DNA of 55,118 nucleotides from a virus (Duplodnaviria > Heunggongvirae > Uroviricota > Caudoviricetes). The position numbers were made by a program, and so were the translations under genes. Where the stretch lies: positions 1 through 55,118 of IMG/VR virus record IMGVR_UViG_2563366941_000007. One strand, 5' to 3'. This document shows positions 72-29,571 of this stretch, in pieces (the stretch's first letter is position 1; each line of letters begins with the position of its first letter). The notes beneath the pieces were generated by a model. That model was not told the DNA's origin and ran no database searches. It saw only the letters and a list, made by a program, of their open reading frames with translations.

Positions 72-93
72 AATGATTTTGATAAAAATCATT
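72..93. repeat. 22-bp palindrome AATGATTTT-GATA-AAAATCATT directly upstream of where invertase homology begins
   Basis: Perfect 9-bp inverted arms around a 4-bp centre; contains TTTTGATAA, resembling hix/gix-type half sites of serine invertases (from memory). Confidence 0.35.
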
Positions 94-95
94 AG

Positions 96-572: not shown

Positions 573-669
573 AAAATAATCTCGGTGTGAGATGCTTTAC
601 GTCTTCCAAGCCCCCTTCCTTGCCGTAAATGGAAAGATACATCTAATTATAGAATTTATATGTTTTACC

Positions 670-16903: not shown

Positions 16904-17694
16904 TTACGCCAGTTGAACGGACACGAACTCATCAGGATCAGCCAGCAGCATCAGCGGTGCTGACTGAATCATGGTGAACTCTCGCGCCGGATCGCCGGAT
17001 GTCTTCCAGTTTTTCGGATAACGGGGAGACGCATTAATACCCTCACTCAATGCATCCGCATCCTGAATACAGCCATAGGTGCGCAGACCGCGTGCATGAG
17101 TGTTACCCAGCACCATCGTGTTGTCCGGCAGGAAGTTCTTTTTGACGCCGTTTTCCACGTACTGTCCGGAATACACGACGATGGCCACATCTCCATACAT
17201 TCCCTTATAAGACACCGCTTTGCCCAGGTCTTTTACCGCTGTCTCCAGTTCGGAATGAGAGCCGCGACGGGTATCCAGCTTCTCCCTGACGGCTTTGAAG
17301 GAACGGAACAGCGCCCAGCCTTTCGGATCAAACACGATGATATTCACCACGCCGCTGGCGTTCAGCGCGTAGGCTTCGATATCGTCGGTCGGATCATACG
17401 TGGACTTGTCACGCTTGCTCCACTCCGTGCCGCCGGACTGCGTGATGTTGTTGGCCGCACTGCGGCCCATATCCACCTCAACCGGATCGAAGGCTTCACC
17501 AGTCATGGTGTATTTGCCCTTGAGCACGGCAGAAACGGCCTGCATCTCTTCGACCTGAGCAATGGCCAGCTCTTCGTCACGCATGTTCTGCATGATGATG
17601 CGACGGCGGCGGTAAGCCGGGTCCGCCAGATTCTGCGGATCTTCATCCGGCAGGCGACGCAGGGTCATCTGCGGATTCACCTCATGCTTGGGTT
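16904..17694 (-). pseudogene. E: Major capsid protein E, C-terminal fragment (codons from ...KPKHEVNPQMTLRRL to the stop)
   Basis: Translation matches about 260 C-terminal residues of lambda gpE; the N-terminal 91 codons lie 11.6 kb away at 29261..29536. Confidence 0.9.
17685..17694. repeat. 10-bp direct-repeat core TGCTTGGGTT, left copy (element/E junction)
   Basis: Identical 10-mer at 29292..29301; both sit exactly where E homology breaks. Confidence 0.8.
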
Positions 17695-17766
17695 ACATGA
17701 GTCAAATATGAAAGGAACTGAATGATTTTTAATGAAATAAATGGCTCTCTCTATCAAAATACAGCT

Positions 17767-17792
17767 AAAAAGCAATACACGTAGCAATACAG
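17767..17792. repeat. Tandem GCAATACA(N) motifs (AAAAAGCAATACACGTAGCAATACAG), candidate integrase arm-type sites, left end
   Basis: Near-identical motif AAAAAGCAATACAAGCTGCAATACAG at 29139..29164 at the opposite end of the element. Confidence 0.45.
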
Positions 17793-17821
17793 CGCTTCGC
17801 AAAGGTATGTCACTATATCTA

Positions 17822-18790
17822 CTAGTGCCAACCAGAATACGAATATCTTTGCTTTGCTTCTTCTGGGCTCATACCCACTAGTAAAGATACTAATTCAAAG
17901 TCAGGTTGTGGAATTGGAATCAATGCAGCCAAATATGCTGGCTTATTGAGAACAATTGTTGATAATTTAGCTTTATTCACCTTAGATAACTCAATATTAC
18001 TTTCCGCTACCTTCGGGAACTCCATAATAAATGAATCAATTTCCCTTATGAGATAATCGATCAACGCCACTATACTTTCTGTCAAATCAATATATTTTGA
18101 CAACTCACTAGCACCAATTTCTTTCTTTATTTCATCCAATTTAATTTCAAACACTGGCTTGTCTTTACTGGCAATATTAGACAAACGTTTCTTTAAATCT
18201 GAATCAAGCTGATTCCTGACAATTAAACTTTTCAAAACAAAATTATAATTAAACAAAAAAGCATCAATTCGAGCAATATTCCTCCATGACTTTCCAATTT
18301 CTTCATCTGACGGCATAATAAGTTCATGTTTTAGTATCTTGTACTTAATAAAAAAAACAAACCTCTCAAATAGAGATTTATTAGCTGTGGGTATCTTTTT
18401 TATAAATGAAAGACGGCTAATATCGAAATTTACCTCCCCGGCGTTAAATAAAAATTCATTTATTGCCAGCGCTCTTAATATTGGATTTCTAGATCTCAAA
18501 CCAATATAACTACTTTTAATTCCCACAAGTGTATTTATCATCTGAAAAGAAACCATCATAAGCGTATTAGCAGAATTAAATTTCTCCGTTTCTATTTTAA
18601 TCTTCTCCTGCCTATTATTGATGCAATAAGCAGTTAAGCCTCCCATAAGCGCCGATAAAAAAGATAATGCAATAGGGAATACATAATCTTTTGTATAATC
18701 AACATCTGCTTTCAACATTAGTATTGCTTTAGCAATCAAAACTGCATCAGGGGTCATGTTAGAGCCGTCATTAAAAATTAAACACAACAC
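17822..18790 (-). CDS. Hypothetical membrane-anchored protein (N-terminal TM segments plus ~250-aa soluble domain), AT-rich cargo gene
   Basis: 322-aa ORF in a conspicuously AT-rich segment; hydrophobic stretches AVLIAKAILML and VFPIALSFLSALMGGLTAYCI near the N-terminus; no recognisable family by eye. Confidence 0.55.
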   Translation of the reverse strand: MLCLIFNDGSNMTPDAVLIAKAILMLKADVDYTKDYVFPIALSFLSALMGGLTAYCINNRQEKIKIETEKFNSANTLMMVSFQMINTLVGIKSSYIGLRSRNPILRALAINEFLFNAGEVNFDISRLSFIKKIPTANKSLFERFVFFIKYKILKHELIMPSDEEIGKSWRNIARIDAFLFNYNFVLKSLIVRNQLDSDLKKRLSNIASKDKPVFEIKLDEIKKEIGASELSKYIDLTESIVALIDYLIREIDSFIMEFPKVAESNIELSKVNKAKLSTIVLNKPAYLAALIPIPQPDFELVSLLVGMSPEEAKQRYSYSGWH

Positions 18791-19454
18791 CCATAAAATA
18801 TAACAGCTTATTGTTTAGAAAAGCAATATCATACACTCTATGATAAGCGTAATATCTGACAGGCATGGTGTGTTACGACACTTAATTAAACGTAATTTGC
18901 TAAAATTTTACACACAGAATCACACCAGGCTCTAACTCTCCTTTCATTACAATTGTAAGCATACAATTATCCTACCAGAACTTTATTGTTGAGCTCTCCC
19001 TTTTGAGCCCATCCCATAATGAATTGACGAAAGAACCGTATCTGTGGAGTAATCATTTCTGCGCGGTTCTATGTCGAAGACAAAATGTGGTATGCGCATC
19101 TAGTCAGAGGGAAAGCAATTTTTCAGGGAAATATCATCTCTACATGGTTAAAACAACCAGAAGAAGTTATCAAGCAAGTTGGGTATGAAGATTTTCCTAT
19201 AATAGTAACGAAACGGGTTTCACCTGAGCGGTTGTGTTCGATCCGCCACAATACGCATAGGATGCCCTGTAATCCGTATTCTGCTTACTCAACAGCTTAC
19301 CAGCAGGACTCGTAAGGCTGTTGCGATAGTGCAGAAGTAGGCCACGACCATAAAGTGAAGCCAGTGGCGCGTTATCGACTACTTTAGTGTAGAGCCTGAT
19401 TTCAACGCAAGCATGAGAGTTTTTTCTGGCGATAGGCCGTGACAAACAGCAACA

Positions 19455-19675
19455 AAATCAGAGAAAGGAAACGGCAGAGGCCAAAAAGCCCGTTTTCAGC
19501 GCCTGTCATTTCCTTTCTTTTCAGGGGGTATTTTAAATAAAAACATAAAGTTACGGCAAAGAAGAACGGAAAAGCCTTAAACCGGAAAATTTCCATAAAT
19601 AGAGAAAAACTGCGCGCCTGACGCCCCGTAACGTTCTGGATCGCCGGAAAGGACCCGCCAGCCAGAGCGGGCCCT
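19455..19675. other. cos-like packaging site of the satellite (cosB R-site and IHF-site homologs; divergent cosN)
   Basis: Aligns base-for-base with much of the prophage cos region 35480..35720 (e.g. GAAAGGAAACGRCAGAGGCC, TTTCCTTTCTTTTCAGGGGGTATTTTAAATAAAAACAT, CCTTAAACCGGAAAATTT); differs at about 5 positions within the cosN-equivalent segment. Confidence 0.75.
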
Positions 19676-19682
19676 AATTTCA

Positions 19683-20066
19683 TCAACCAATCAGCTTATA
19701 GCGACCATCCCGTGCATTGCGGCGTACACGCTCAATCTTGAGGCATAGCGCCGCATCTGGCTTTTTTGGGACAGGTACGCGGCAATATTCAGAAGCGCGA
19801 GGAATATTATTTATCCAGTCGATCACTTCACTTAAATACCAGGCCTTACGCCCTTCCGTAACCTGCACACGCTCCGGGAACTCTCCACTAGCCTCAAGGT
19901 TTAGCAGTGTACGACGACTCAGGGTTGTAATTTCCATCACCTGATTCATATCAACAAGGCGCTCGCTTAAACACATTTTGTCAGCGATAGCTTTTAATTC
20001 CTCTACAGCTGGATTCGGGTACATCATTTCGGCAATTGGCTTAAGGTCATTGTAATCATTCTGCAT
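19683..20066 (-). CDS. AlpA/Nu1-like HTH protein next to cos; candidate packaging-redirection (Rpp-like) or regulatory protein
   Basis: 127-aa ORF with HTH-like segment MEITTLSRRTLLNLEASGEFPERVQVTEGRKAWYLSEVIDWI; functional call is inference from position beside cos. Confidence 0.45.
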   Translation of the reverse strand: MQNDYNDLKPIAEMMYPNPAVEELKAIADKMCLSERLVDMNQVMEITTLSRRTLLNLEASGEFPERVQVTEGRKAWYLSEVIDWINNIPRASEYCRVPVPKKPDAALCLKIERVRRNARDGRYKLIG

Positions 20067-20077
20067 TGTATCCCCCT

Positions 20078-20419
20078 TTACACACGAGCCAGCGGCTGAA
20101 CAGAAATACCTGAGCCAACAAACGCTGCAACCTTTACTGACAGTTCTTTAACAGACTCAGGCCAGTTCAGAGCATCAACATTTAAGACACCTGTCTTATA
20201 GACCTGAGCCTGTGTTTTTTTCGCGGTGTCGATTTGTACAGCGGAAACATAAACCGCTTTACCTACGCTCGAACCATCCCATACCACCAGTGCACCTGTT
20301 GCATCTTCCTGCATCAGTGGCGTAAATGCAGGAATTACCCCTTTATTAGCTGAAAATATCCCCAGCGTAGTCACCAGTGCTTCAGTGCCAGCCATGAGTT
20401 CAGTGTAATGAGTAGCCAT
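20078..20419 (-). CDS. Head decoration protein, divergent homolog of lambda gpD
   Basis: 113 aa; shares PLM...VVWDGS...YKTG...WPE...AAFVGSGISV pattern with gpD (PLML...VAWDGT...YKSG...WPE...[10 protein letters not shown]). Confidence 0.7.
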   Translation of the reverse strand: MATHYTELMAGTEALVTTLGIFSANKGVIPAFTPLMQEDATGALVVWDGSSVGKAVYVSAVQIDTAKKTQAQVYKTGVLNVDALNWPESVKELSVKVAAFVGSGISVQPLARV

Positions 20420-20428
20420 TGCTCCCCC

Positions 20429-21469
20429 TTAGCCAATGCGAACGGTAACAAAACGATTGATGCGGGCCGGTATTGGCTGTGGTGCTGAATGTGTCTGCAC
20501 ATATTCAATAGCCGGATCACCAGGCACAATATAGTTTTTCGGTGCAAGTTCGGCTTTAGTCAGCCCCATTCGGATTAGCTCCGGATCCTGAATACCGCCA
20601 TAGGCGACAATCCCCTGAAGAGCCGTATTGCCAAGCACCATCAAATCAGGATCAAGGAAATGTTTTTCTGTTCCGTCCTCGTCGGTATAACGCCCGCTGT
20701 AAACAACAATCGCAACATCGCCCATATACCCTTTAAAACTCACCGAATCACCAAGGTCTTTAAGGGCCGTTTCCAGTTCGGAATTAGAACCACGACGGGT
20801 ATCCAAAGCCTCTTTTATCGCTCTGAATGAACGGTATTTCTTCCATACATTACCACCCATAATGATGATATTAGTGACGCCCTCACTAAATTCTGCGTAG
20901 CTCTCAATATCATCATTTGGATCAAAAGTTTCTTTATCCTTACCTGACCACTCAGTACCGCCAGACTGAGTGATGATATTTTGTGGTTTTATATTCCAGT
21001 CCAGCTCATAACGTTCAATACCATCGCCCTCAATGATATTTTTCCCCGTTGTGATTGCCTGAACAGCAAGCCATTCAATACGTGCACGAATAGCTTTAGC
21101 CTGATTTACAATCGCCTGTTTAACTTTAATATTACGCGCCCCAAAAGCATTGTATTGCTCAGGTGACACACCAACAGGGCGCACAGCTAACTTATTTGGA
21201 TCAATGCTGCTTTTCGGCTTCATATAACCTGGACGAATTGTTTTTGATTCGTATCCCTCATCTCGTGAAACTTTACTGCCCACCATAGGAGAGCAAAACG
21301 CCGCGATCGGGATATTTGGATCGTCGATCGTATCAAGAATAATGTCTCTCGATTCAAACATTACCGAGCGAGTGAAAAACAAACTGGTAAACAACGCATT
21401 TAATTTTTTTTGTACATCTACAGCATTAACCACCTGTACAAGCTGAGTAGGCGAATATAAATCAACCAT
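20429..21469 (-). CDS. Major capsid protein, divergent homolog of lambda gpE
   Basis: Shares PGYMKPK, QSGGTEWS, DTRRGSNSELETALKDLG, GDVAIVVYSG, MVLGNT blocks with gpE; start at 21469 is preceded by AAGAGGA. Confidence 0.8.
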   Translation of the reverse strand: MVDLYSPTQLVQVVNAVDVQKKLNALFTSLFFTRSVMFESRDIILDTIDDPNIPIAAFCSPMVGSKVSRDEGYESKTIRPGYMKPKSSIDPNKLAVRPVGVSPEQYNAFGARNIKVKQAIVNQAKAIRARIEWLAVQAITTGKNIIEGDGIERYELDWNIKPQNIITQSGGTEWSGKDKETFDPNDDIESYAEFSEGVTNIIIMGGNVWKKYRSFRAIKEALDTRRGSNSELETALKDLGDSVSFKGYMGDVAIVVYSGRYTDEDGTEKHFLDPDLMVLGNTALQGIVAYGGIQDPELIRMGLTKAELAPKNYIVPGDPAIEYVQTHSAPQPIPARINRFVTVRIG

Positions 21470-21751
21470 ACGCATCCTCTTTGCATTCATTAAAAATAAT
21501 TGTGGATATATGCTATCACCGATATTTGTCATGCGAACACATGCAACCGAGTGCAATGTTGTATAAAGTTTTGGGGTGACAACTTCAGTGCGGACAATTA
21601 GTGTTAATATCTTCACTCCCTTTGGTCGGGATTTATGTAGCATGCCGGAAAATTTATTTTTTCCGGCCTTTTTTTATTGGCAATATTTAAAACGGGGGTG
21701 ATGCTGCCAACTTACTGATTCAGTGTATGATGGTGTTTTTGAGGTGCTCCA

Positions 21752-22027
21752 GTGGCTTCTGTTTCTATCAGCTGTCCCTCCTGTTCAGCTACTGACGGGG
21801 TGGTGCGTAACGGCAAAAGCACCGCCGGACATCAGCGCTATCTCTGCTCTCACTGCCGTAAAACATGGCAACTGCAGTTCACTTACACCGCTTCTCAACC
21901 CGGTACGCACCAGAAAATCATTGATATGGCCATGAATGGCGTTGGATGCCGGGCAACAGCCCGCATTATGGGCGTTGGCCTCAACACGATTTTACGTCAC
22001 TTAAAAAACTCAGGCCGCAGTCGGTAA
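21752..22027 (+). CDS. insA: IS1 InsA
   Basis: 91-aa [43 protein letters not shown]... Confidence 0.95.
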
Positions 22028-22449
22028 CCTCGCGCATACAGCCGGGCAGTGACGTCATCGTCTGCGCGGAAATGGACGAACAGTGGGGCTATGTCGGGGC
22101 TAAATCGCGCCAGCGCTGGCTGTTTTACGCGTATGACAGGCTCCGGAAGACGGTTGTTGCGCACGTATTCGGTGAACGCACTATGGCGACGCTGGGGCGT
22201 CTTATGAGCCTGCTGTCACCCTTTGACGTGGTGATATGGATGACGGATGGCTGGCCGCTGTATGAATCCCGCCTGAAGGGAAAGCTGCACGTAATCAGCA
22301 AGCGATATACGCAGCGAATTGAGCGGCATAACCTGAATCTGAGGCAGCACCTGGCACGGCTGGGACGGAAGTCGCTGTCGTTCTCAAAATCGGTGGAGCT
22401 GCATGACAAAGTCATCGGGCATTATCTGAACATAAAACACTATCAATAA
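21946..22449 (+). CDS. insB: IS1 InsB reading frame (InsAB' transposase made by -1 frameshift)
   Basis: ORF ...[50 protein letters not shown]... typical of IS1 InsB. Confidence 0.9.
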
Positions 22450-22463
22450 GTTGGAGTCATTAC

Positions 22464-22913
22464 CTAAAACGGGATATCATCTCCCCATTGCTCATTATCT
22501 CCCACTGGTGGCTGGCTTCCTTGCTGATCTGCCTGTTGTTTTGCTCTGTTCAGTGCGTCAGTAGCCTGCCCCTGTTGGCCTTTATTGCCGCCCGGTCGCA
22601 CCGATCGCGCACTGATTACGCTGTCTGCGATAACCTGCCAGCCCTGCCGCGTTTCGCCGTTCTGTCCAGTCCACTGGCTCATCTGCATGTTACCCGCCAC
22701 GCTCAGGAGTTCGCCTTTGTGATGCTTTGCCAGCGCGTCGGCTTGTCTGCCAAACGCCAGGACAGATAACCACATCGTCGCCTGACCGTCATCCGACTGA
22801 CTGCAGGGCAGTGATACCGCCATACGCGCCAACGTCATGGGGGTGCCCTTGCTGGTCTGTTTTGTCTGCGGGTCGTCCACCGACCGCCCGTAAACTGATA
22901 TTTGCGCCGTCAT
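22464..22913 (-). CDS. Single-stranded DNA-binding protein (SSB-like)
   Basis: 149-aa ORF with OB-fold-like core and acidic C-terminal tail ending DDIPF; the present stop codon TAG is formed by the last base of IS1 plus the target duplication. Confidence 0.7.
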   Translation of the reverse strand: MTAQISVYGRSVDDPQTKQTSKGTPMTLARMAVSLPCSQSDDGQATMWLSVLAFGRQADALAKHHKGELLSVAGNMQMSQWTGQNGETRQGWQVIADSVISARSVRPGGNKGQQGQATDALNRAKQQADQQGSQPPVGDNEQWGDDIPF

Positions 22914-23155
22914 GCGGCCTGCTCTCCGGACTTAATATTGATTGTTGTCACTTCCTCCGCTTCAGCAATCTCCCGTTCGGTCAGAGTGGCAAAGTTTGCA
23001 GCCGCCGTTGTCATGAATGCGCTAATCAGTTCGGGATGTGCTTTCGCGTATCCTTCCCCGGCGTTGCGGTCGATGATTTTTATCGACACCCTTAACCAGT
23101 ATTCCGTCAAATCAAGGGCGTGCGATTGTGATTTTTTTGTGTGCTTCGCTGTCAT
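22910..23155 (-). CDS. Hypothetical protein (81 aa) upstream of ssb
   Basis: ORF with overlapping ATGA junction to ssb; no recognisable family. Confidence 0.4.
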   Translation of the reverse strand: MTAKHTKKSQSHALDLTEYWLRVSIKIIDRNAGEGYAKAHPELISAFMTTAAANFATLTEREIAEAEEVTTINIKSGEQAA

Positions 23156-23205
23156 AGGCTTTATCTCACAGCAGTAAATTAAAATTTTTGCGTTTTAACC
23201 CTTCA

Positions 23206-23430
23206 TCTGTTCACCTTTTGATATTTTCTCTTTTAATTCATAATGTTAATGGGTAAACAGTTTCACAAAAACTATTCACCAACTGTTCACCACTGTTCAC
23301 CCTTGAAGCTCAATAAACAATCAAAAAGGTGAACAGTGAATAGTTTGGTGAACAGTTCATAAATAACTGTTCACCCTATAATATACTGATATAAAAGATA
23401 TTTATGACAGGGTGAACAGTGGTGAACAGT
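23206..23430. repeat. Iteron cluster (about 9 copies of GGTGAACAGT / ACTGTTCACC in both orientations): candidate replication origin
   Basis: Repeats read directly at 23206, 23272, 23282, 23292, 23328, 23347, 23367, 23411, 23421; AT-rich spacers; immediately 3' of the rep gene. Confidence 0.7.
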
Positions 23431-23442
23431 TATTCCATAAGT

Positions 23443-25263
23443 TTAATTTTTGCTATCGTCATTAGTGACCGATACACATGATGGCATCCAGTCTTCTGAT
23501 TCCTCCGTCAGTGTCACGTTTGAACGCAAACCGTGCTTCGTTTTCCGTTTCATATACTCCCTGCCATATTCCGCCATTGCCCCCGGCATATCTTTACCGA
23601 AGCGCGTCAGTGTTACAGGTTTACCAAACCCATGTGCCCTCATATAAGCCAGATAGGCATGATAGAGATACCTGCGTGGGCTGAATGGCACAATTTCAGC
23701 ATTACCCACTAACAGGCCATCACACATTACCGATGCCATGAGATAGCCGCAGAAGTCCACCAGCGAATCCCCCTCTCGCTTTATCGCCAGTGCTTCTTCA
23801 GATTTCTGCTGCTCATATAACAGGCGTCTGGCTTCGTCCTGATCAGCAAACCGTGTAAGCAGATGACGAATCACTACCGCCAGCTCACCTTCTATTTTTT
23901 CCGCCAGCATCGAATCGCGTTCGTTCTCCGGTACAACTTCCGAAAAATTGAATATCACCCGACGACGTGAGATCCCCCCGCTGCGGTCACTGAATGACAT
24001 GGCGTTATTGTTAACCGCCAGCACTACTGCCGGAATACGCGTTGAATAGGGGGCTTTGTGTTTCGGGTCAATTGCCACCTTGTCACCGCCTGTAATGGCC
24101 TTAATCCCTGCCCCATCACCAGCGTAGCGGGTCATATCCGGCATGATAATCAGCGAAAAGCCAACCACTAACGCACGTTCCCTTGCATCTTCCAGCGCCT
24201 TCATGCTTGCTGATACTGTATTAGCCTTACCCGCCAGCATGGTGCAAATCTCCGCCATCACACTTTTACCACTTCCCCCCGGCCCTGTTACCTCAATGAA
24301 TAACTGCCAGTCGTACCGGTTCGCCAGCACCATGAATAATGCCGCCAGTACGCGATCTGCCTTGCGGTCATTCTCAGCCACCGAACGGCGCAACCACTTC
24401 CAGAAATTCGGCGCATGTGTTGCCAGCGTTTCCCCCTCTGCTGGTGGGCTGAAAGGTAATTCACTGGCAATTAACAACCAGTCGTTTTTGTTATGCTCCC
24501 GAAAATTACCAGTTCTGGTATCAAATACCCCGTTACTGAATCCAATCAGGTTACGGGCTGTATTCCCCATTACAGGCAAACTTAACTTCATGGTATCTAC
24601 CGCCGATTTAATAGCGTTCTGCGAATAGCTGATCTCCGCATCAATGAAAATCTGCGCCATAGCACGCTGTAACTCTTTATCCTGAACCGGCTCCCATACA
24701 ACGCCGTTGTAATGATGAACGGTGTCAGAGTCGGCATTGATTGCCAGTTCACCGCCATAATGTGCAAGGAGAACTTCACCGCGCTGGCTGGCCCCCATCT
24801 GATTCAACGCCAAAGATGAAGCACGCTCGTCATTTTTGCGCTCTGCCTTCTTCACTGGCAGTTCAATCACCAGACTTTCCCCATGCTCCGCTTCAGCTTT
24901 TAGGCCGACAAGGCGCGGAGTCCAGTCTTCAGGCTCTCGATCAACAAAGCTACGGTAACAACGTGCTTCCTTTACGCCTGCAATAGCAAGTAATGTCGCA
25001 ACCTTCGTCAGACTTTTCTCTGCAATCTTTCCGGCACGATAAACACGCACATAATGACGGCCTTCATCGATAATTTGCATATCATCCAGGTTTTCCAGTT
25101 GTTCCGTACCCAGAATGACTGGTGGTGTATCATCTGCTGCAATATGCTTACCTGCCCATTCATTCCATTCTTTTGCATGGCTCCAGGCATCACTGCCAGC
25201 AAAAATGATGACTTCCGTCATTTTGTCGCGCGGTTGGTATTTTAAGTTCGGAGCACGTTTCAT
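23443..25263 (-). CDS. Replication initiator, P4-alpha/D5-type SF3 helicase family (primase-helicase-like)
   Basis: 606-aa ORF with Walker A GPGGSGKS and surrounding D5/SF3-helicase-like sequence; adjacent to the iteron cluster. Confidence 0.7.
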   Translation of the reverse strand: MKRAPNLKYQPRDKMTEVIIFAGSDAWSHAKEWNEWAGKHIAADDTPPVILGTEQLENLDDMQIIDEGRHYVRVYRAGKIAEKSLTKVATLLAIAGVKEARCYRSFVDREPEDWTPRLVGLKAEAEHGESLVIELPVKKAERKNDERASSLALNQMGASQRGEVLLAHYGGELAINADSDTVHHYNGVVWEPVQDKELQRAMAQIFIDAEISYSQNAIKSAVDTMKLSLPVMGNTARNLIGFSNGVFDTRTGNFREHNKNDWLLIASELPFSPPAEGETLATHAPNFWKWLRRSVAENDRKADRVLAALFMVLANRYDWQLFIEVTGPGGSGKSVMAEICTMLAGKANTVSASMKALEDARERALVVGFSLIIMPDMTRYAGDGAGIKAITGGDKVAIDPKHKAPYSTRIPAVVLAVNNNAMSFSDRSGGISRRRVIFNFSEVVPENERDSMLAEKIEGELAVVIRHLLTRFADQDEARRLLYEQQKSEEALAIKREGDSLVDFCGYLMASVMCDGLLVGNAEIVPFSPRRYLYHAYLAYMRAHGFGKPVTLTRFGKDMPGAMAEYGREYMKRKTKHGLRSNVTLTEESEDWMPSCVSVTNDDSKN

Positions 25264-25526
25264 TTGTTACCTCCGGCAACTAACATTGCCCGAATTTTAC
25301 GGATATAGCCTGCGGCACGCCTCTGATTATCTGTCTTGCAATTTTTTACCAGAATGAAATCTCTTTCGAACTGCTGACGCGGCATAACACATTCAAAATC
25401 ATAACCATCACGCAAATAAGAGACACGACGATCATCAACCGAAATAATCTTTACCCGATAGCCATAGCTGTCTTTGAAAATATCCCCAAGGCTGATTTTT
25501 GAATGAGTGGATTTGACCGCTGGCAA
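25260..25526 (-). CDS. Hypothetical protein (88 aa), translationally coupled to rep
   Basis: ORF with ATGA overlap to the rep start. Confidence 0.4.
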   Translation of the reverse strand: MPAVKSTHSKISLGDIFKDSYGYRVKIISVDDRRVSYLRDGYDFECVMPRQQFERDFILVKNCKTDNQRRAAGYIRKIRAMLVAGGNK

Positions 25527-25554
25527 TAAAGCCAGAAAATTTATTTTTCATTTT

Positions 25555-25779
25555 TTATTCTCCGGTATAGCTCTGGTCGTGTATTTTTATAGCTTCATCC
25601 AGCTCTTTGATGACAGGATCAAGTAACGTAATTAACGCTCCAGCTAAATTAGCATCCCGTTCATCGTGTTCCGCATTTGTTGTCCCATCAAGCCAGGTTG
25701 ATAAGATTTCTCGCATATTTTTGCCACAAACGAGCGCGTTTTCAGCATGTGTCAGCACTTTAAAATAAAGATCATTCAT
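25555..25779 (-). CDS. Hypothetical protein (74 aa)
   Basis: ORF in the same operon orientation; overlaps the upstream ORF by 8 nt. Confidence 0.4.
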   Translation of the reverse strand: MNDLYFKVLTHAENALVCGKNMREILSTWLDGTTNAEHDERDANLAGALITLLDPVIKELDEAIKIHDQSYTGE

Positions 25780-25975
25780 GGCACACCTCCTGACGAATAC
25801 GGGCGGCGAATATCATCACGTAGCCAGTTGGGGATTGCAGCCGGGCTTCCTGTTCGCTGGCGGCCTCGATGGTAATCACGCGCGGTTGTGCCGTACTCAG
25901 GGCGATAAAACGCCAGATGTATTTATTCAGGTTGTGCGGGTCCCGCCCTTGCGGGTGTGTGGTATGATTTCTCAT
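25772..25975 (-). CDS. Hypothetical protein (67 aa), first gene of the leftward replication operon
   Basis: Start at 25975 is preceded by GAGG at good spacing; the ORF track's longer 104-aa version is probably over-extended. Confidence 0.4.
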   Translation of the reverse strand: MRNHTTHPQGRDPHNLNKYIWRFIALSTAQPRVITIEAASEQEARLQSPTGYVMIFAARIRQEVCHE

Positions 25976-26010
25976 AGCTACCTCGATACTGTTGCTATCG
26001 TTGGTGGTTA

Positions 26011-26056
26011 GAAGCCCGTTGGTGTTCCTAGCACCTTCGGGCTTTGCTTTTTTAAG
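26011..26056 (+). terminator. Two-tier GC hairpin followed by a T-run (terminator-like or small RNA 3' end)
   Basis: GAAGCCCG...CGGGCTTT stem enclosing GGTG...CACC, followed by GCTTTTTT; no plus-strand gene upstream. Confidence 0.3.
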
Positions 26057-26068
26057 TGCCTCCGTGTT

Positions 26069-26118
26069 AAGGTGGTCACCTAACAATGAAAAGGCTAATT
26101 CAATAGGTGGTCACTTGT
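26069..26118. promoter_or_regulatory. Direct repeats AGGTGGTCAC (two copies ~36 bp apart) upstream of the RHH gene; candidate operator
   Basis: AAGGTGGTCACCTAACA at 26069 and AGGTGGTCACTTGTCAACG at 26105, in the divergent intergenic region. Confidence 0.35.
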
Positions 26119-26174
26119 CAACGATCAAACGCGATAAAAGTCCTAAGGGTGATGGGCAATCTCCACAATTCAGA

Positions 26175-26306
26175 ATGCGAATTTCTCCAGAGCTAAAAGA
26201 GCAATTCGACAAAGAAGCGCAGAGCGACGGCATAAGCCTAGCCAACTGGCTTAAAGAATTAGGGCGCAAAGAGCTGCTACGGCGCGGTATTGAACCAAAA
26301 GGATAA
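26175..26306 (+). CDS. Ribbon-helix-helix (Arc/CopG-like) DNA-binding protein
   Basis: 43-aa product MRISPELKEQFDKEAQSDGISLANWLKELGRKELLRRGIEPKG has an RHH-like strand-helix-helix pattern; start chosen inside the longer ORF 25992..26306. Confidence 0.5.
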   Translation: MRISPELKEQFDKEAQSDGISLANWLKELGRKELLRRGIEPKG

Positions 26307-26333
26307 GAATAATTGAAGTCAAGGAGCTAACAC

Positions 26334-26690
26334 ATGAAATACGAATTCTTCGCAACAAGTAGCAGTAGTTTGGATGTATACATAGTCACTGTATCAAACG
26401 ATTCTGGCTCTCTAATCATGACTTGTAATTGTCCAGCAGGAAGTAAAGGTATTCTATGTAGACACCGTAAAGCTTTAATTACCGGAAAAATCCGCGGTAT
26501 ATTCACTCCCCCAAGAAGGAATAATCCCGAAAAATTACAAGAAGCTATAAATTTAATAGCCACATATGGCATAGATAAAACATTAAAGTTGTACACTGAT
26601 GAGTTAGAACGAGCAGAACAGACTTGGATAAGTGTTCGCGATAATTTGAGAGCAATGATAAACGCTCTTGTTGAACCACCTAAATATTGA
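26334..26690 (+). CDS. Small SWIM-type zinc-finger protein (CxCx9CxH), AT-rich cargo gene
   Basis: 118 aa; motif MTCNCPAGSKGILCRH; strongly AT-rich coding sequence. Confidence 0.5.
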   Translation: MKYEFFATSSSSLDVYIVTVSNDSGSLIMTCNCPAGSKGILCRHRKALITGKIRGIFTPPRRNNPEKLQEAINLIATYGIDKTLKLYTDELERAEQTWISVRDNLRAMINALVEPPKY

Positions 26691-26821
26691 ACTGTTCACA
26701 TTGCCTATCAGGCGATAACCTCGTATTCTGATTAAGGCTAACTATATACTCACATTGGCGACCAATTCTGGTCGCCTTTATCTACCATTTTTATAATATC
26801 ATAGATTAAGAGTGTTAATCC

Positions 26822-27676
26822 TTACCCCCTGAATGGAATTGATGAGGATTTAATTTCCACAGAACCAAATCCTCTTGAATCCAAAAACATTTTTATACCA
26901 GCCTCAATAAAATCATAATCGCTTGTCGGGCCAATTGTAATGCTTTTAATTGGTAACTTTCTATTATCTTTATTATTAATAATGATATAAGGGATGATAC
27001 CATTATTATTTATTCTAAATTTCACATCTGGCATTTGTATCCACGGAGTAAACACCAGTCTAAATTCATTTTCTTCGATAAAACTAGGATGTTTAAAAAA
27101 TGGGATATATTTAGATATAAATTGATACGTAGAGACCATTGTTACAAAATGATCATTCATTTCTTTAATGTTAATACCATTACAAGAAAAAAACTCATCC
27201 AACTCCTTACTCATCTTTGTAATATCGTCATTATTTGAATATATAACATCATGTGCAACACAATTTAAATAAATATTTTGACAAAAACTCACAAGTTCAT
27301 CCGCATCAAATTCAATGCAAACGCCCTGTTTATTTCCGTAACCTCTCCACTGACTTAACTTATCGTTTTCTTTACAAAAAGATATGCTATAAACATGTTT
27401 ATCAATCCCTTTTTCTTTTTGTAACTTCCCTTTCTCATACATGTCAAGAGACTTGAGCAAAATAGTTTTCTTATCTTTTGGGATGATATTATCATCAACT
27501 ATTTTAATTGTATTTCGAAAACATTCACATCCATGGTTAGACTCCTCTTTATCATTTAAGAAATATATATTTGTAGCCCATAAAGAATTAGAGTCTAATA
27601 TACCTTTCAAACCAAAAAGATCTGTATAATGAAATATAGCCACAATGCCCCACCTAATAGTTAAGTCGTTTCCCAC
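26822..27676 (-). CDS. DUF2971-like protein, AT-rich cargo gene (candidate defence-associated)
   Basis: 284 aa; N-terminal FHYTDLFGLKGILDSNSLWATNIYFLNDKEE fits the DUF2971 signature as recalled; AT-rich. Confidence 0.55.
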   Translation of the reverse strand: MGNDLTIRWGIVAIFHYTDLFGLKGILDSNSLWATNIYFLNDKEESNHGCECFRNTIKIVDDNIIPKDKKTILLKSLDMYEKGKLQKEKGIDKHVYSISFCKENDKLSQWRGYGNKQGVCIEFDADELVSFCQNIYLNCVAHDVIYSNNDDITKMSKELDEFFSCNGINIKEMNDHFVTMVSTYQFISKYIPFFKHPSFIEENEFRLVFTPWIQMPDVKFRINNNGIIPYIIINNKDNRKLPIKSITIGPTSDYDFIEAGIKMFLDSRGFGSVEIKSSSIPFRG

Positions 27677-27891
27677 TCACCTCGAATCCATGCCTGCACT
27701 TCTGAAAGACGATATGCAACAGCAGTGGAACCAATCTTGATCCGCTTAGGAAATTTTCCTTCCTTCTCCAGCTTCCAGCGTGTGCTGTTCGCAAGAGTGG
27801 TTAGCTCCCGACATTCTTTCTCACGGATCATACGATCGATGTTAGGAATGTACTCCAGACCCTTTTTATCAACAATTGCCATTTTTTTCAT
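27661..27891 (-). CDS. alpA: AlpA-family transcriptional regulator/excisionase-like HTH protein
   Basis: 76 aa; ...LTTLANSTRWKLEKEGKFPKRIKIGSTAVAYRLSEVQAWIRG matches the AlpA (CP4-57 regulatory) family; adjacent to int. Confidence 0.75.
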   Translation of the reverse strand: MKKMAIVDKKGLEYIPNIDRMIREKECRELTTLANSTRWKLEKEGKFPKRIKIGSTAVAYRLSEVQAWIRGEWETT

Positions 27892-27892
27892 G

Positions 27893-29128
27893 TTAACCAG
27901 CCTTTTGTTTGAGGATTGTCACTTTTGAATCAGCACCTGCGATGCTATTGAGATATGTAGTCCAGAGTTCCAGAGCATCCAGTTTTTTAGCCATAAACTT
28001 ACTCCGGTTGTAAACACCCGCCACGCCAGGTAGCGCATGGCCTAACAGTTGTTCTACTACATAAAATTCAACACCGAGATCACTTAGATGAGTAGATAGC
28101 GTTCTTCTAAGGTCGTGTAGTGACCATTGTTTTTCATGGCCCAAACGTTTACCGATTTTCCCCCCAATCTTGCTTACGCTTTCTCTAATTCGCAGACTTC
28201 CCAGCACATAACCAGTATGTCTTGTCTCTTCGTGAACATCCGTTACCCACTGTCGTAGAATTTCAGGTACTGGTCTGACGATTTCAACACCAGTTTTTGA
28301 GTGATCTTTTGGTACCGTCCAAACCCAACTTTCGAGATCCCATTCGCTCCATTCAGATAATCGGGCTTCACTCATTCGACATCCAAATACTGTACAAAGC
28401 ACAAACATTTTTCGCGTGTATTCAGACATTAGTTTTAAATCAGGCTCGACAAAAATTGCCTTCCAGAGCTGGCCCAGTTCGGCTTCATCCAGAACCCGAT
28501 CCCGCTTACCTGCAATCTGCCCCACATCACTCATGCGCAAATCCTTTAAAGCATCACATGTCGCGTACTGGCGTACCCGACAAAAACGAAGAGCTAATTT
28601 AGTGTCAGAAAAAACATACGCCGCCATAACTGGTGCATTACGTTTAATTCGGTCAAAACAGTCCAGCCATTCATATAGGTGAGTGTCATTTACAGGCAAA
28701 TGACCGATATAGGGAAAGATATGCTTTCGAAATCTGCCAAGCGTTACAGCATGAGTTTTACGACGCACCTTACAGTAATTTTCATACCAGTAATTTAGTG
28801 CATCCTCCACTGTGACCGGCTTTAAGCGTTCTTCAGCCTGAATCTTAATCTGGATACGCGGATCACGTTTGTCAGCCAACCAACCACGGCACTCGTCGCG
28901 CTTTTCCCTTGCCTGTTTGAGTGACATATCAGGATATTTACCCAACGTTAGCCAGACCGGAGCAGCCCGGCCACCTGCTAACCTGTAGAAGAAAACAAAG
29001 CTCACAGCCCCCTTGGTACTCACACGAATAGAAAGCCCCTTTCCATCAGCAATGGTGATCTGCTTTTCTCTGGGTTTCCCCAGATATCCTTTAAGCGCTT
29101 TGTCGCTCAGTTTGTTCTCGCCAGCCAT
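27893..29128 (-). CDS. int: Tyrosine integrase, P4-like family
   Basis: Start MAGENKLSDKALKGYLGKPREKQITIADGKGLSIRVSTKG... has a P4-integrase-like N-terminus; C-terminal HDLRRT...LLGH...Y catalytic-region motifs; sits at the element end. Confidence 0.85.
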   Translation of the reverse strand: MAGENKLSDKALKGYLGKPREKQITIADGKGLSIRVSTKGAVSFVFFYRLAGGRAAPVWLTLGKYPDMSLKQAREKRDECRGWLADKRDPRIQIKIQAEERLKPVTVEDALNYWYENYCKVRRKTHAVTLGRFRKHIFPYIGHLPVNDTHLYEWLDCFDRIKRNAPVMAAYVFSDTKLALRFCRVRQYATCDALKDLRMSDVGQIAGKRDRVLDEAELGQLWKAIFVEPDLKLMSEYTRKMFVLCTVFGCRMSEARLSEWSEWDLESWVWTVPKDHSKTGVEIVRPVPEILRQWVTDVHEETRHTGYVLGSLRIRESVSKIGGKIGKRLGHEKQWSLHDLRRTLSTHLSDLGVEFYVVEQLLGHALPGVAGVYNRSKFMAKKLDALELWTTYLNSIAGADSKVTILKQKAG

Positions 29129-29138
29129 TTTTAGCCCC

Positions 29139-29164
29139 AAAAAGCAATACAAGCTGCAATACAG
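29139..29164. repeat. Tandem GCAATACA(N) motifs (AAAAAGCAATACAAGCTGCAATACAG), candidate arm-type/operator sites, right end
   Basis: Matches the motif at 17767..17792; lies just upstream of the int start codon. Confidence 0.45.
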
Positions 29165-29260
29165 AGATGATTGCAACACACAGATAACGAGGAAAATTCA
29201 GTGAAAGCGCCAGATAAACTTATTCTTTATTATCAAAAGATTAAGTGTAAAAACCAGCAA

Positions 29261-29536: not shown

Positions 29537-29555
29537 AAAAAAATCCCGTAAAAAA

Positions 29556-29571
29556 AGCCGCACAGGCGGCC
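29556..29571 (-). other. GC hairpin with minus-strand T-run between D and E (terminator/attenuator-like)
   Basis: GCCGC-ACAG-GCGGC stem flanked by an A-run on the plus strand. Confidence 0.3.

What the first reader, a model, noticed from the sequence alone, without database searches (positions are those of the whole stretch)
23206..23430. Dense bidirectional iteron array GGTGAACAGT next to the helicase gene: candidate satellite replication origin
At least nine copies of a 10-bp motif occur in both orientations within ~225 bp of AT-rich DNA directly 3' of the SF3 helicase gene. This matches the usual rep-ori arrangement of satellite and plasmid-like replicons and implies autonomous replication after excision.
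Basis: partly seen in the sequence, partly recalled or inferred. Interest (0 to 1): 0.45.

Follow-up and report, generated by a model that had tools for sequence, protein, structure and literature searches.

The report
Replication origin of a prophage-embedded satellite
The repeat cluster is real and is almost certainly the replication origin of a known kind of phage satellite (a PICI sitting inside the capsid gene of its helper prophage), so it is ordinary, except that its repeats match those of the unrelated-looking satellite phage P4.

Summary
Observation confirmed. GGTGAACAGT occurs 10 times (7 exact, 3 with one mismatch, both orientations) in 23206-23430, plus an 11th degenerate copy. This 28-37% GC intergenic stretch lies directly 3' of a 606-aa SF3 helicase gene.

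The element (about 17696-29290) is a helper-embedded PICI of the published 11capE type, inserted in the lambda-like capsid gene E. Its Rep is 605/606 identical and its ori 284/287 identical to NRG857c 11capE.

The array matches, position by position and in orientation, the tested EcCICFT073 pri-rep origin, but with a different iteron (CTGTTCACC instead of CTGTCTACC).

- Iterons are conserved while spacers drift across 87 copies.
- Copy number changes in exact 10-bp steps.
- Iteron sequence tracks the Rep helicase/C-terminal class, not the N-terminal domain.

One point I did not find in the searchable literature: the iteron equals the phage P4 type I iteron (TGTTCACC). The Rep C-terminus matches the P4 alpha origin-binding domain (PDB 1KA8, E=1.9e-24), and the array sits where P4 has its crr.

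Replication of this allele is untested. In NRG857c, post-excision amplification of 11capE was weak.

Verdict: a real origin of an already known kind; low-to-moderate interest.

The parts
23156..23442 (.). Whole rep-distal intergenic region, taken here as the candidate origin of replication. The iteron array proper is 23206-23430.
   Evidence: 11 iterons. GC is 0.28-0.37. 284/287 identical to the region 3' of the primase gene in NRG857c 11capE. Positionally homologous to the EcCICFT073 ori. No sigma-70-like promoter, intrinsic terminator or DnaA box inside it.
23411..23430 (+). Rep-proximal tandem iteron pair (2 x GGTGAACAGT, 10-bp spacing). It begins 12 bp after the Rep stop codon.
   Evidence: The same tandem pair lies 13/23 nt after the stop in EcCICFT073, with CTGTCTACC as the iteron. 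One copy is lost in L076, an exact 10-bp deletion.
23376..23410 (.). 35-bp spacer, 80% AT, bounded by inverted iterons. Best candidate for the DNA-unwinding element.
   Evidence: It contains the least stable 30-mer of the region (23376-23405, nearest-neighbour dG -27.0 against a local mean of -41.0). That is the third least stable 30-mer in the whole window.
23328..23375 (.). Inner iteron group of the Rep-proximal half: 23366-23375 (-), 23347-23356 (+), 23335-23344 (+, degenerate) and 23328-23337 (+).
   Evidence: Same positions and orientations as in EcCICFT073 (72, 91, 102 and 111 nt after the stop).
23271..23301 (-). Inner iteron group of the Rep-distal half: 23292-23301, 23282-23291 and 23271-23280 (1 mismatch).
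   Evidence: Copy number at this site varies in 10-bp steps among relatives: 3 copies in L019 and 1 in L024 and L086.
23206..23261 (.). Rep-distal unit: iteron 23252-23261 (+, 1 mismatch), a 36-bp spacer that is 83% AT (23216-23251), and iteron 23206-23215 (-, 1 mismatch).
   Evidence: This stretch aligns colinearly with the 120-bp repeat of the P4 crr, including the spacer (GAATTAAAAGAGAAAATATCAAAAGGTGAACAG against GAAATTAAAAGAGAAAAACGAAAGGTGAACAG). The window's copy at 23252-23261 is a consensus iteron in most relatives.
23443..25263 (-). Rep (called Pri-Rep in the PICI literature), 606 aa. It is an SF3 helicase with a C-terminal origin-binding domain.
   Evidence: Pfam D5_N (aa 163-292), DUF5906 (326-434) and Pox_D5 (497-592). 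NCBIfam TIGR01613, P4-family primase C-terminal domain, scores below its cutoff. 51% identical to P4 alpha aa 323-771. 605/606 identical to the NRG857c 11capE primase.
23482..23772 (-). Part of Rep encoding the origin-binding winged-helix domain (aa 498-594).
   Evidence: phmmer hit to PDB 1KA8 (P4 alpha C-terminal domain), E=1.9e-24. The wing motif Y-x-K-[RK]-x-T-K-x-G is shared by proteins whose origins carry TGTTCACC and differs in those with CTACC iterons.
25260..25526 (-). DUF4222 protein (88 aa). Its stop overlaps the Rep start, and it always precedes Rep in relatives.
   Evidence: Pfam DUF4222, E=2.8e-22. Conserved synteny in CFT073, IAI39, NRG857c and others. No similarity to P4 Cnr. 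Its role is unknown.
22464..23155 (-). 81-aa ORF (22910-23155) and an SSB gene (22464-22913) immediately downstream of the origin. Together they form the rest of the replication module.
   Evidence: Pfam SSB, E=5.9e-15; no family found for the 81-aa ORF. The same order occurs in EcCICFT073 and NRG857c.
17686..29300 (-). The satellite that owns the origin: a helper-embedded PICI. It is bounded by the 10-bp direct repeat TGCTTGGGTT at 17686-17695 and 29291-29300 and sits inside lambda-like capsid gene E.
   Evidence: The E N-terminus (29261-29563) and E C-terminus (16904-17680) flank the island. Integrase 27893-29179 and AlpA-like 27661-27891. This matches the published E:Phage_cap_E:80 site with a 10-bp identity block (PMC10111431).

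Best explanation
The array is the cognate replication origin of a phage-inducible chromosomal island (a PICI of the helper-embedded '11capE' type).

**Proposed mechanism.**
1. The island's Rep is made from the unidirectional early operon.
2. Rep binds the 10-bp iterons (core TGTTCACC) through its C-terminal winged-helix origin-binding domain.
3. The iterons form two inverted half-sites. Each half is [1-2 iterons] - 35/36-bp AT-rich spacer - [inverted iteron] - 9 bp - [3 iterons].
4. Rep molecules bound on both sides of an AT-rich spacer assemble into the hexameric SF3 helicase.
5. The spacer melts (best candidate 23376-23410).
6. The island-encoded SSB covers the single strands and host polymerase copies the excised circle.

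**Status of each step.**
- Shown here: the anatomy, the conservation, the homology and the Rep-iteron co-variation.
- Taken from relatives: Rep binding to iterons (P4 alpha, from my recall of the P4 literature) and ori function (EcCICFT073).
- Inferred: the melting site, the priming route and how strongly this allele replicates. Rep lacks the P4 primase domain, and its 148-aa N-terminal domain has no recognisable fold.

While the island is still inside the helper prophage, it is also copied passively.
For: 1. **Anatomy.** 11 iterons in 225 bp; a single cluster in 55 kb; AT-rich spacers that include the third least stable 30-mer of the window.
2. **Match to a tested origin.** In EcCICFT073 (L003), iterons lie at the same distances from the Rep stop and in the same orientations. 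These are a tandem pair at 13/23, an inverted copy at about 70, three direct copies at about 87-111, inverted copies at about 145-165, a direct copy at about 180 and an inverted copy at about 225-235. All copies there read CTGTCTACC rather than CTGTTCACC. That origin was tested by cloning (PMC6092414).
3. **Selection.** Among 87 copies (55 unique), 22 of 107 iteron columns vary against 74 of 180 spacer columns (Fisher p=4.4e-4). Minor-allele counts are 33 against 347. A Klebsiella relative keeps the TTCAC core at the same positions while its spacers diverge.
4. **Unit behaviour.** Gains and losses are of exactly 10 bp within the tandem arrays.
5. **Co-variation with Rep.**
   - Window-type body and C-terminal domain go with TGTTCACC.
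   - CFT073-type goes with TGTCTACC.
   - A recombinant with a window-type helicase but a diverged last ~50 aa (L091) has TCTACC-type iterons.
   - A DUF927-type Rep (L010) has TGGGACAAG in the same layout.
   - The N-terminal 150 aa swaps freely without changing the iteron.
6. **P4 link.** Rep aa 498-594 hits PDB 1KA8, whose sequence equals P4 alpha aa 677-771 (E=1.9e-24). P4's annotated 'ori type 1 repeats' are TGTTCACC, written GGTGAACAGT in its ori. P4 alpha is described as primase + SF3 helicase + winged-helix DNA-binding domain (PMC2777425).
7. **Extrachromosomal form.** A circular 10,790-bp record (NZ_CP148328.1) is a whole PICI with this Rep class and 10 iterons 3' of Rep. No other replication gene is listed in its gene table.
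8. **Other cis sites lie elsewhere.** The cos-like segment is at 19453-19658 and the att cores are at 17686-17695 and 29291-29300.
Against: - No experiment exists for this allele.
- For the almost identical 11capE in NRG857c, post-excision attP:attB was about 1 in two of three repeats and 1.6-1.9 in one. The excised island therefore amplified little under those conditions (PMC10111431).
- In P4, the iteron cluster at the equivalent position (crr, 3' of alpha) is a cis-required region rather than the start site, which is at a separate ori 4.5 kb away.
- Rep has no detectable primase domain: its alignment with P4 alpha starts at alpha aa 323, and there is no Pfam or PDB hit for aa 1-150. How priming happens is open.
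- Two of the window's outer iterons carry substitutions relative to the consensus of relatives.
- The 87 compared copies are related, so the conservation test is not made of independent samples.
- The circular record could be an assembly of an excision product rather than a maintained replicon.
Confidence: 0.87

Rival explanations
1. The array is a crr-like cis-acting accessory site, not the place where replication starts. Rep binds it, as P4 alpha binds crr, but initiation happens elsewhere or depends on the helper's replication.
For: The array occupies the crr position, directly 3' of the alpha-like gene. Its distal half aligns with the P4 crr 120-bp repeat, spacer included. Post-excision amplification of 11capE was weak.
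Against: There is no second TGTTCACC cluster in the island or anywhere in the window to serve as the true ori. The positionally homologous EcCICFT073 segment, together with rep alone, supported plasmid maintenance, and its deletion reduced it. The array contains its own very unstable AT-rich spacers flanked by inverted iterons.
Confidence: 0.07
2. The repeats are mainly a transcriptional control element. Bound Rep or another island protein would act as an operator or roadblock between the early (replication) genes and the downstream 81-aa/SSB/capsid genes, or would autoregulate rep.
For: The array lies between two co-oriented gene blocks. No terminator or sigma-70-like promoter was found in it, so read-through must pass the bound sites. 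Iteron-binding initiators of plasmids commonly autoregulate (general knowledge).
Against: The sites are downstream of rep, not at its promoter. The layout of inverted sets around AT-rich spacers and the homology to P4 ori/crr and the EcCICFT073 ori point to replication. A regulatory side-effect is not excluded, but it would be additional to origin function.
Confidence: 0.03
3. The array is a decaying relic. Because the island is embedded in its helper and is copied passively with it, its own origin is no longer used.
For: Passive replication of the composite was observed, and post-excision amplification was weak. Two outer iterons in the window are degenerate. In IAI39 the Rep gene has an internal stop.
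Against: Iterons are clearly better conserved than spacers across 55 unique variants. Rep is intact here and 100% identical in 21 IMG/VR loci. The same rep-ori module is carried by PICIs at ordinary chromosomal sites that have no passive route, and by a free circular record.
Confidence: 0.02
4. The array is a packaging, recombination or partition site (pac/cos, integrase arm sites or a centromere).
For: Short repeats in both orientations also occur at such sites.
Against: A 206-bp cos-like segment, 89% identical to the helper's cos region, lies at 19453-19658. The att cores are 5.5-6 kb away on either side. No partition genes were seen. The repeat sequence tracks the Rep class even though integrases and packaging modules differ between relatives.
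Confidence: 0.01

Closest known systems
Origin of Gram-negative PICIs, prototype EcCICFT073 pri-rep-ori (Fillol-Salom et al. 2018, ISME J, PMC6092414)
   Same: - Immediately 3' of pri-rep, followed by a small ORF and SSB.
- Iteron sets in both orientations flanking AT-rich DNA.
- Iteron positions and orientations correspond one to one.
- Rep has the same domain order and is 44% identical.
- The island organisation is the same: int, alpA, Icd-like, DUF4222, rep, ori, SSB, E-like capsid, D-like decoration.
   Different: - The iteron is CTGTTCACC rather than CTGTCTACC.
- The Rep C-terminal domain is only 35% identical.
- This allele has not been tested experimentally.
- The island is embedded in a prophage rather than in a chromosomal site.
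Eco567.11capE, the helper-embedded PICI of E. coli NRG857c (Tommasini, Mageeney and Williams 2023, PMC10111431)
   Same: - Same integration site in capsid gene E, with a 10-bp identity block.
- Same orientation relative to the late genes.
- Rep 605/606 identical and ori 284/287 identical.
[quoted passage not shown]
   Different: - The window copy carries an IS1 at the SSB stop codon.
- It has a different Bro-zone segment and different cargo at the far end.
- The text I searched of that paper does not use the word 'iteron' (0 occurrences).
Phage P4 replication system: alpha protein with ori and crr type I iterons (GenBank NC_001609 annotation; PDB 1KA8)
   Same: - Identical iteron: TGTTCACC, written GGTGAACAGT in the P4 ori.
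- Homologous SF3 helicase (51.6%) and origin-binding domain (49%), closer than the EcCICFT073 Rep is.
- An iteron cluster directly 3' of the gene.
- A repeat unit of tandem pair - 35-bp AT spacer - inverted iterons that aligns with the crr repeat.
   Different: - No P4 primase domain (alpha aa 1-322 has no counterpart).
- One compound cluster instead of ori plus crr 4.5 kb apart.
- The two units are inverted rather than direct.
- No terminator between the gene and the repeats.
- No sid/psu/delta/epsilon genes are named in the annotation of relatives.
- The helper is lambdoid, not P2.
SaPI (Gram-positive PICI) origins
   Same: [quoted passage not shown]
   Different: No sequence relationship was tested here. 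The weak PDB hit 7OLA/7OM0 ('DNA primase', E=2.6e-10, helicase core only) may be a staphylococcal island Rep, but I could not verify that.
Iteron-type theta plasmids (pSC101, R6K, F/RepE class)
   Same: Multiple initiator-binding repeats next to AT-rich DNA and next to the rep gene.
   Different: - The initiator here is itself an SF3 helicase, not a RepA-type winged-helix dimer.
- Iterons are 8-10 bp and lie in both orientations, rather than being 17-22-bp direct repeats (general knowledge).
- There are no DnaA boxes in the origin.

Membership tests
Gram-negative PICI pri-rep/ori replicon | Origin lies immediately 3' of the pri-rep gene. | tested here: met
   The array starts 12 bp after the Rep stop and fills the 287-bp gap up to the next ORF.
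Gram-negative PICI pri-rep/ori replicon | [quoted passage not shown] | tested here: met
   Inverted iteron sets lie around spacers of 80-83% AT. There is one-to-one positional correspondence with the EcCICFT073 ori.
Gram-negative PICI pri-rep/ori replicon | Host element has PICI organisation: int, alpA, unidirectional genes, about 10-15 kb, no tail or lysis genes. | tested here: met
   The 11.6-kb island has int, two AlpA-like genes, Icd-like, DUF4222, Rep, SSB, an E-like capsid and a D-like decoration gene, all on the minus strand. It is syntenic with CFT073.
Gram-negative PICI pri-rep/ori replicon | Rep-dependent, ori-dependent autonomous replication. | not testable with these tools
   Only indirect evidence is available: the tested homologue, a circular 10.8-kb PICI record with the same module, and weak amplification of 11capE in NRG857c.
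Helper-embedded PICI, site E:Phage_cap_E:80 (11capE group) | Integrated inside a lambda-E-type capsid gene at about codon 80, with a 10-bp identity block, and co-oriented with the late genes. | tested here: met
   E is split after ...GYVKPKH. TGCTTGGGTT occurs at both junctions. The E fragments, int and Rep are all on the minus strand. The attL junction is present in 173 of 5426 complete E. coli genomes.
Helper-embedded PICI, site E:Phage_cap_E:80 (11capE group) | Sequence identity to the type element. | tested here: met
   The int end, the replication zone and the late zone are 97.8-99.4% identical to NRG857c. The Bro zone and the cargo differ.
Phage P4 alpha / ori-crr system | Type I iteron TGTTCACC. 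| tested here: met
   8 exact TGTTCACC in 23208-23428. P4 has 11 exact copies, all inside its annotated ori and crr.
Phage P4 alpha / ori-crr system | C-terminal origin-binding winged-helix domain of alpha. | tested here: met
   phmmer hit to 1KA8, E=1.9e-24, over Rep aa 498-594. 49% identity.
Phage P4 alpha / ori-crr system | N-terminal DnaG-type primase domain with zinc-binding motif. | tested here: not met
   The BLASTP alignment covers alpha aa 323-771 only. Rep aa 1-150 has no Pfam or PDB sequence match. The single-sequence AF2 model was unusable (pLDDT 47).
Phage P4 alpha / ori-crr system | Bipartite cis elements: ori and crr about 4.5 kb apart. | tested here: not met
   Only one iteron cluster exists in the island and in the window.
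Phage P4 alpha / ori-crr system | P4 hijacking genes (sid, psu, delta, epsilon) and a P2-type helper. | tested here: not met
   No such products are named in the annotation of the homologous islands, and none appeared in the Pfam/NCBIfam scans, which covered only part of the island's ORFs. The helper is lambdoid, with B, C, D and E cognates and a lambda-type cosN at 35658-35669.
Iteron-type theta plasmid replicons (RepA/RepE class) | RepA-family initiator, long direct iterons and DnaA boxes. | tested here: not met
   The initiator is an SF3 helicase. The repeats are 10 bp and lie in both orientations. There is no DnaA-box match inside 23156-23442.

The most novel reading that the evidence does not exclude
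This widespread PICI Rep class and P4 alpha read the same iteron (TGTTCACC) through homologous origin-binding domains. If so, two satellite families that use different helpers (lambdoid versus P2) could cross-fire, titrate or block each other's origins when they share a cell. That would be a form of replicon incompatibility, or of cross-activation.

It could contribute to the reported under-representation of P4-like plus PICI co-occurrence in E. coli (PMC10085698). On this reading, the PICI origin is an inverted duplication of a crr-like unit and the PICI Rep is a P4 alpha that exchanged its primase domain for a 148-aa module of unknown function.

I did not find this link stated in the searchable literature. 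PMC6092414 describes PICI Pri-Rep as different in sequence from P4 alpha.
Probability: 0.3. Interest if true: 0.5.

Novelty: already known. Interest (0 to 1): 0.27.

Why it matters
As a replication origin of a PICI it adds nothing new in kind. [quoted passage not shown]

Its practical value is annotation. It marks the cis site and the cognate initiator of a module present in about 11% of complete E. coli genomes (594 of 5426).

The modest new angle is specificity.
- The natural Rep mosaics point to the C-terminal winged helix, and probably its wing, as the iteron reader.
- The shared iteron with phage P4 makes cross-talk between two satellite families directly testable with simple plasmid assays.

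Tried and rejected
- **Genome-collection scan with a Rep alignment.** I used IMG/VR (80 loci) and complete E. coli genomes instead.
- **Literature search for the iteron strings with 'PICI'.** It gave only irrelevant primer matches, because 'pici' also matches inside 'ampicillin'. The iteron strings are not in the held supplements of PMC6092414. Its Fig. 2a, which lists iteron sequences, cannot be read, so I cannot say whether this allele's iteron is printed there.
- **N-terminal 150 aa of Rep.** There was no Pfam hit even at E<=10 and no PDB sequence hit. The single-sequence AlphaFold model had pLDDT 46.9, too poor for a fold search. My impression of a degenerate Toprim-like pattern is untested and is dropped.
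- **DUF4222 protein against P4 Cnr (ORF106).** No similarity was found, so the idea of a Cnr-like copy-number regulator has no support.
- **Promoter and terminator scan of the origin.** Nothing was found.
- **DnaA boxes.** None lie in the origin and there is no enrichment in the window.
- **Rfam on the island.** No family reached its gathering score, although PMC10111431 reports C4/isrK-type hits in some PICIs.
- **PADLOC on three cargo ORFs.** Only two weak hits to candidate systems.
- **Packaging-site reading.** Rejected, because the island's cos-like segment is at 19453-19658.
- **Plasmid-type iteron replicon reading.** Rejected on initiator type and repeat form.
Full report
**1. The observation**

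The region 23206-23430 holds ten copies of GGTGAACAGT with at most one mismatch; seven are exact. Five of the ten lie on each strand. The whole 55-kb window has 17 such matches, against 2.6 expected, and no shuffle reaches 17. An eleventh copy with two mismatches (AGTGAATAGT, 23335-23344) overlaps the copy at 23328-23337.

The 8-bp core TGTTCACC, allowing one mismatch, occurs ten times in 23201-23450. The background is 0.34 per 250 bp, and no second cluster exists anywhere in the window. GC content falls to 0.28-0.37 over the array.

The array fills the 287-bp gap between two minus-strand ORFs. One is the stop codon of a 606-aa ORF (23443..25263). The other is the start of an 81-aa ORF (22910..23155), which is followed by an SSB gene. 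The 606-aa protein has D5_N, DUF5906 and Pox_D5 domains and a weak papillomavirus E1 helicase match, so it is an SF3 helicase of the D5/P4 type.

**2. Internal layout**

The coordinates below are read in the direction of Rep, as nucleotides after the stop codon.

| Position after stop (nt) | Feature |
|---|---|
| 13 and 23 | tandem iteron pair |
| following the pair | 35-bp spacer, 80% AT |
| about 68 | inverted copy |
| next | 9-bp gap |
| 87, 99, 106 | three copies in the first orientation |
| next | 26-bp centre |
| 142, 152, 163 | three inverted copies |
| next | 9-bp gap |
| 182 | one direct copy |
| next | 36-bp spacer, 83% AT |
| 228 | inverted copy |

The origin is therefore a rough dyad of two units; the repeat finder reports 54-nt arms that are 72% complementary.

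The spacer 23376-23410 contains the least stable 30-mer of the neighbourhood. That 30-mer is the third least stable in the whole window. It is my candidate for the unwinding element, but this is an inference.

No sigma-70-like promoter, intrinsic terminator or DnaA box lies in the gap.

**3. What the element is**

The array belongs to an 11.6-kb island bounded by the 10-bp direct repeat TGCTTGGGTT (17686-17695 and 29291-29300). The island splits a lambda-type major capsid gene E after ...GYVKPKH. Upstream lie the prophage's D, C and B cognates, and a lambda-type cosN is at 35658-35669.

All of the island's genes named below are on the minus strand:
- integrase and an AlpA-like gene;
- an Icd-like gene;
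- DUF4222, Rep, the array, the 81-aa ORF and SSB;
- an E-like capsid gene and a D-like decoration gene;
- a second AlpA-like gene.

This is the organisation of Gram-negative PICIs and is syntenic with EcCICFT073. The nested arrangement is the published 'helper-embedded PICI' Eco567.11capE, at site E:Phage_cap_E:80, with a 10-bp identity block and 201 reported instances (PMC10111431). Against NRG857c itself, Rep is 605/606 identical and the origin 284/287 identical. The context is therefore already in the literature.

**4. Evidence that the array is the origin**

(a) *A tested homologue.* Fillol-Salom et al. describe the origins of E. coli PICIs as iteron sets flanking an AT-rich region directly 3' of pri-rep. 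They showed that the EcCICFT073 rep-ori segment supports plasmid maintenance, and that deleting rep or ori reduces it (PMC6092414). In the CFT073 locus I find iterons at 14, 23, 72, 91, 102, 111, 145, 156, about 176, 224 and 233 nt after the stop. Their orientations match those of the window copies, but they all read CTGTCTACC. Two of the nine bases (positions 5-6) differ in every copy while the layout is kept. That is what a change of initiator specificity looks like.

(b) *Selection.* I collected 87 copies of the window-type origin from complete E. coli genomes and IMG/VR contigs; 55 are unique. Iteron columns vary in 22 of 107 cases and spacer columns in 74 of 180 (Fisher p=4.4e-4). Minor-allele counts are 33 against 347. 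These sequences are related, so the p-value is indicative only. A Klebsiella relative whose rep is 79% identical at the DNA level keeps the TTCAC core at the same positions while its spacers are rewritten.

(c) *Unit behaviour.* Length variants differ by exactly one 10-bp unit in the tandem arrays: three copies in L019, one in L024 and L086, and one at the Rep-proximal pair in L076.

(d) *Co-variation with Rep.* Rep is a mosaic.
- The first ~150 aa swap independently of iteron type. EC4 has a window-like N-terminus with CTACC iterons. EcPF14 has a CFT073-like N-terminus with TCACC iterons.
- The helicase body plus C-terminus tracks the iteron.
- FDAARGOS_1302 has a window-type helicase (93% identical) but a diverged last ~50 aa, and its origin carries TCTACC-type iterons in a different arrangement. 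It is a single recombinant, so the point is suggestive only.
- An E. albertii Rep with the same N-terminal module fused to a DUF927-type body has TGGGACAAG iterons in the same design of tandem pair, AT spacer and inverted set.

(e) *Other cis functions are located elsewhere.* A 206-bp cos-like segment, 89% identical to the helper's cos region, is at 19453-19658. The att cores are at the island ends.

(f) *The module travels.* The same rep-ori is found in PICIs at yicC-dinD and cspD-clpS, with other integrases and packaging genes. It is present in 594 of 5426 complete E. coli genomes. It is also in a circular 10,790-bp record that is an entire PICI, with 10 iterons after Rep and no other replication gene in its gene table.

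**5. The P4 connection**

Rep aa 498-594 matches PDB 1KA8 with E=1.9e-24. The 1KA8 sequence is identical to P4 alpha aa 677-771 as seen in the BLASTP alignment. P4 alpha is described as an N-terminal DnaG-type primase, an SF3 helicase and a C-terminal winged-helix DNA-binding domain (PMC2777425).

Overall, Rep aa 149-596 is 51% identical to alpha aa 323-771. That is closer than to the EcCICFT073 Rep in both modules:

| Module | Window Rep vs P4 alpha | Window Rep vs EcCICFT073 Rep |
|---|---|---|
| Helicase | 51.6% | 46% |
| C-terminal domain | 49% | 35% |

The GenBank record of P4 annotates 'ori type 1 repeats' in ori and in crr. They are TGTTCACC, with 11 exact copies against 0.34 expected, and in ori they read GGTGAACAGT GGTGAACAGA C GGTGAACAGT. 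The window's iteron is therefore the P4 type I iteron.

P4's crr lies directly 3' of the alpha gene, as the PICI array lies 3' of rep. The distal half of the PICI array aligns colinearly with the 120-bp crr repeat, including a spacer motif. That P4 alpha binds these repeats through its C-terminal domain is from my recollection of the P4 literature (Ziegelin et al. 1993; Yeo et al. 2002), which I could not open here.

The system differs from P4 in four ways:
- the P4 primase domain is absent;
- there is one compound cluster rather than ori plus crr;
- the two units are inverted rather than direct;
- there is no terminator between the gene and the repeats.

The proteins whose origins carry TGTTCACC share the wing motif Y-x-K-[RK]-x-T-K-x-G. 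This holds for the window, 06-3462, Klebsiella and P4. The CTACC readers have YITRKVKGV or a longer insert.

**6. Mechanism**

The most likely course is as follows. Rep binds the iterons through its winged helix. It then oligomerises across an AT-rich spacer into the SF3 hexamer and melts that spacer. The island's SSB and host polymerase complete the fork.

- Shown here: the layout, the selection, the homology and the co-variation.
- Borrowed from relatives: binding (P4) and origin function (EcCICFT073).
- Inferred: the melting site, the directionality, and priming by a host primase or by the uncharacterised N-terminal module.

Because the island is embedded in and co-oriented with the helper's late operon, it is also replicated passively before excision (PMC10111431).

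**7. Evidence against, and limits**

Nobody has tested this allele. In NRG857c the excised 11capE amplified little: attP:attB was about 1 in two of three repeats and 1.6-1.9 in one. The crr analogy leaves open that the array is necessary but is not the start site, although I found no alternative site. Two outer iterons in the window are degenerate relative to the family consensus.

**8. Novelty and score**

The kind of feature (a PICI origin) and this very island type are published, so I rate it as already known.

I did not find the identity with the P4 type I iteron, or the crr-like unit structure, in the literature I could search. PMC6092414 stresses that PICI Pri-Rep differs in sequence from P4 alpha. 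Annotation pipelines, however, already label these proteins as P4-family, so the protein homology itself is not new.

The testable consequence is cross-recognition or incompatibility between P4-like satellites and this PICI class. [quoted passage not shown]

Interest 0.27.

Noticed in passing
window 17686-29300 (E fragments 16904-17680 and 29261-29563): [quoted passage not shown] It carries its own E-like capsid gene (20429-21643) and D-like decoration gene (20078-20419). This is the published helper-embedded PICI configuration (PMC10111431). The attL junction occurs in 173 of 5426 complete E. coli genomes.
   Followed up: yes
window 21697-22464: A 768-bp IS1 (InsA/InsB ORFs) flanked by a 9-bp target duplication TAAAACGGG (21688-21696 and 22465-22473). 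It is inserted exactly at the stop codon of the island's SSB gene. SSB stays intact (its stop changes from TAA to TAG), but the replication module is now separated from the capsid and decoration genes, with possible polar effects. The IS1 is absent from NRG857c 11capE.
   Followed up: partly
window 19453-19658: An island segment 89% identical to the helper prophage's cos region (35496-35701; helper cosN GGGCGGCGACCT at 35658-35669). The cosN-equivalent bases differ in the island copy. It is presumably the island's packaging site.
   Followed up: partly
window 17822-18790: A 322-aa ORF at the variable far end of the island with no Pfam, NCBIfam or PADLOC match. At the same position, relatives carry a TIR-domain gene (IAI39), HEPN + DUF262 genes (NRG857c), or a gene annotated as a putative abortive-infection protein. 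This end therefore looks like a defence-cargo hotspot.
   Followed up: partly
window 26334-27676: Cargo in the 'Bro zone' differs from NRG857c. A 284-aa ORF (26822-27676) is annotated DUF2971 in relatives. An opposite-strand 118-aa ORF (26334-26690) has a CxC...CxH pattern reminiscent of a SWIM zinc finger. Both gave only weak PADLOC hits to candidate systems (E=2.4e-4 and 4.9e-5).
   Followed up: no
Rep 23443-25263; loci L004, L093, L091, L010: Rep is a three-part mosaic. The N-terminal ~150 aa recombine independently of the helicase/C-terminal part. In E. albertii the same N-terminal module is fused to a DUF927-type body. This N-terminal module has no detectable family or fold, and no primase motif was found.
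   Followed up: partly
L098 (NZ_CP148328.1, whole record): A 10,790-bp circular record deposited as an E. coli plasmid is a complete PICI: int, alpA, Icd-like, DUF4222, Rep and 10 iterons, plus a protease-capsid fusion. It is either an excised, self-maintaining island or an assembly of an excision product.
   Followed up: partly
L001 (E. coli IAI39, NC_011750.1 530406-548804): This copy of the same island has lost everything from its own int N-terminus to the prophage's left end, and an IS3 sits at the break. A truncated island integrase is therefore next to a second integrase fragment at tRNA-Arg. Its Rep gene is annotated with an internal stop. It is a decayed, immobilised copy.
   Followed up: partly
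L019, L024, L076, L086 (IMG/VR loci), aligned to window 23282-23301 and 23411-23430: Natural copy-number variation of the tandem iterons in exact 10-bp steps (1, 2 or 3 copies).
   Followed up: yes
window 20429-21643: The mechanical ORF for the island's capsid gene is 404 aa. Homologues are annotated at 346 aa (1041 bp), so the real start is probably downstream, near 21469.
   Followed up: no
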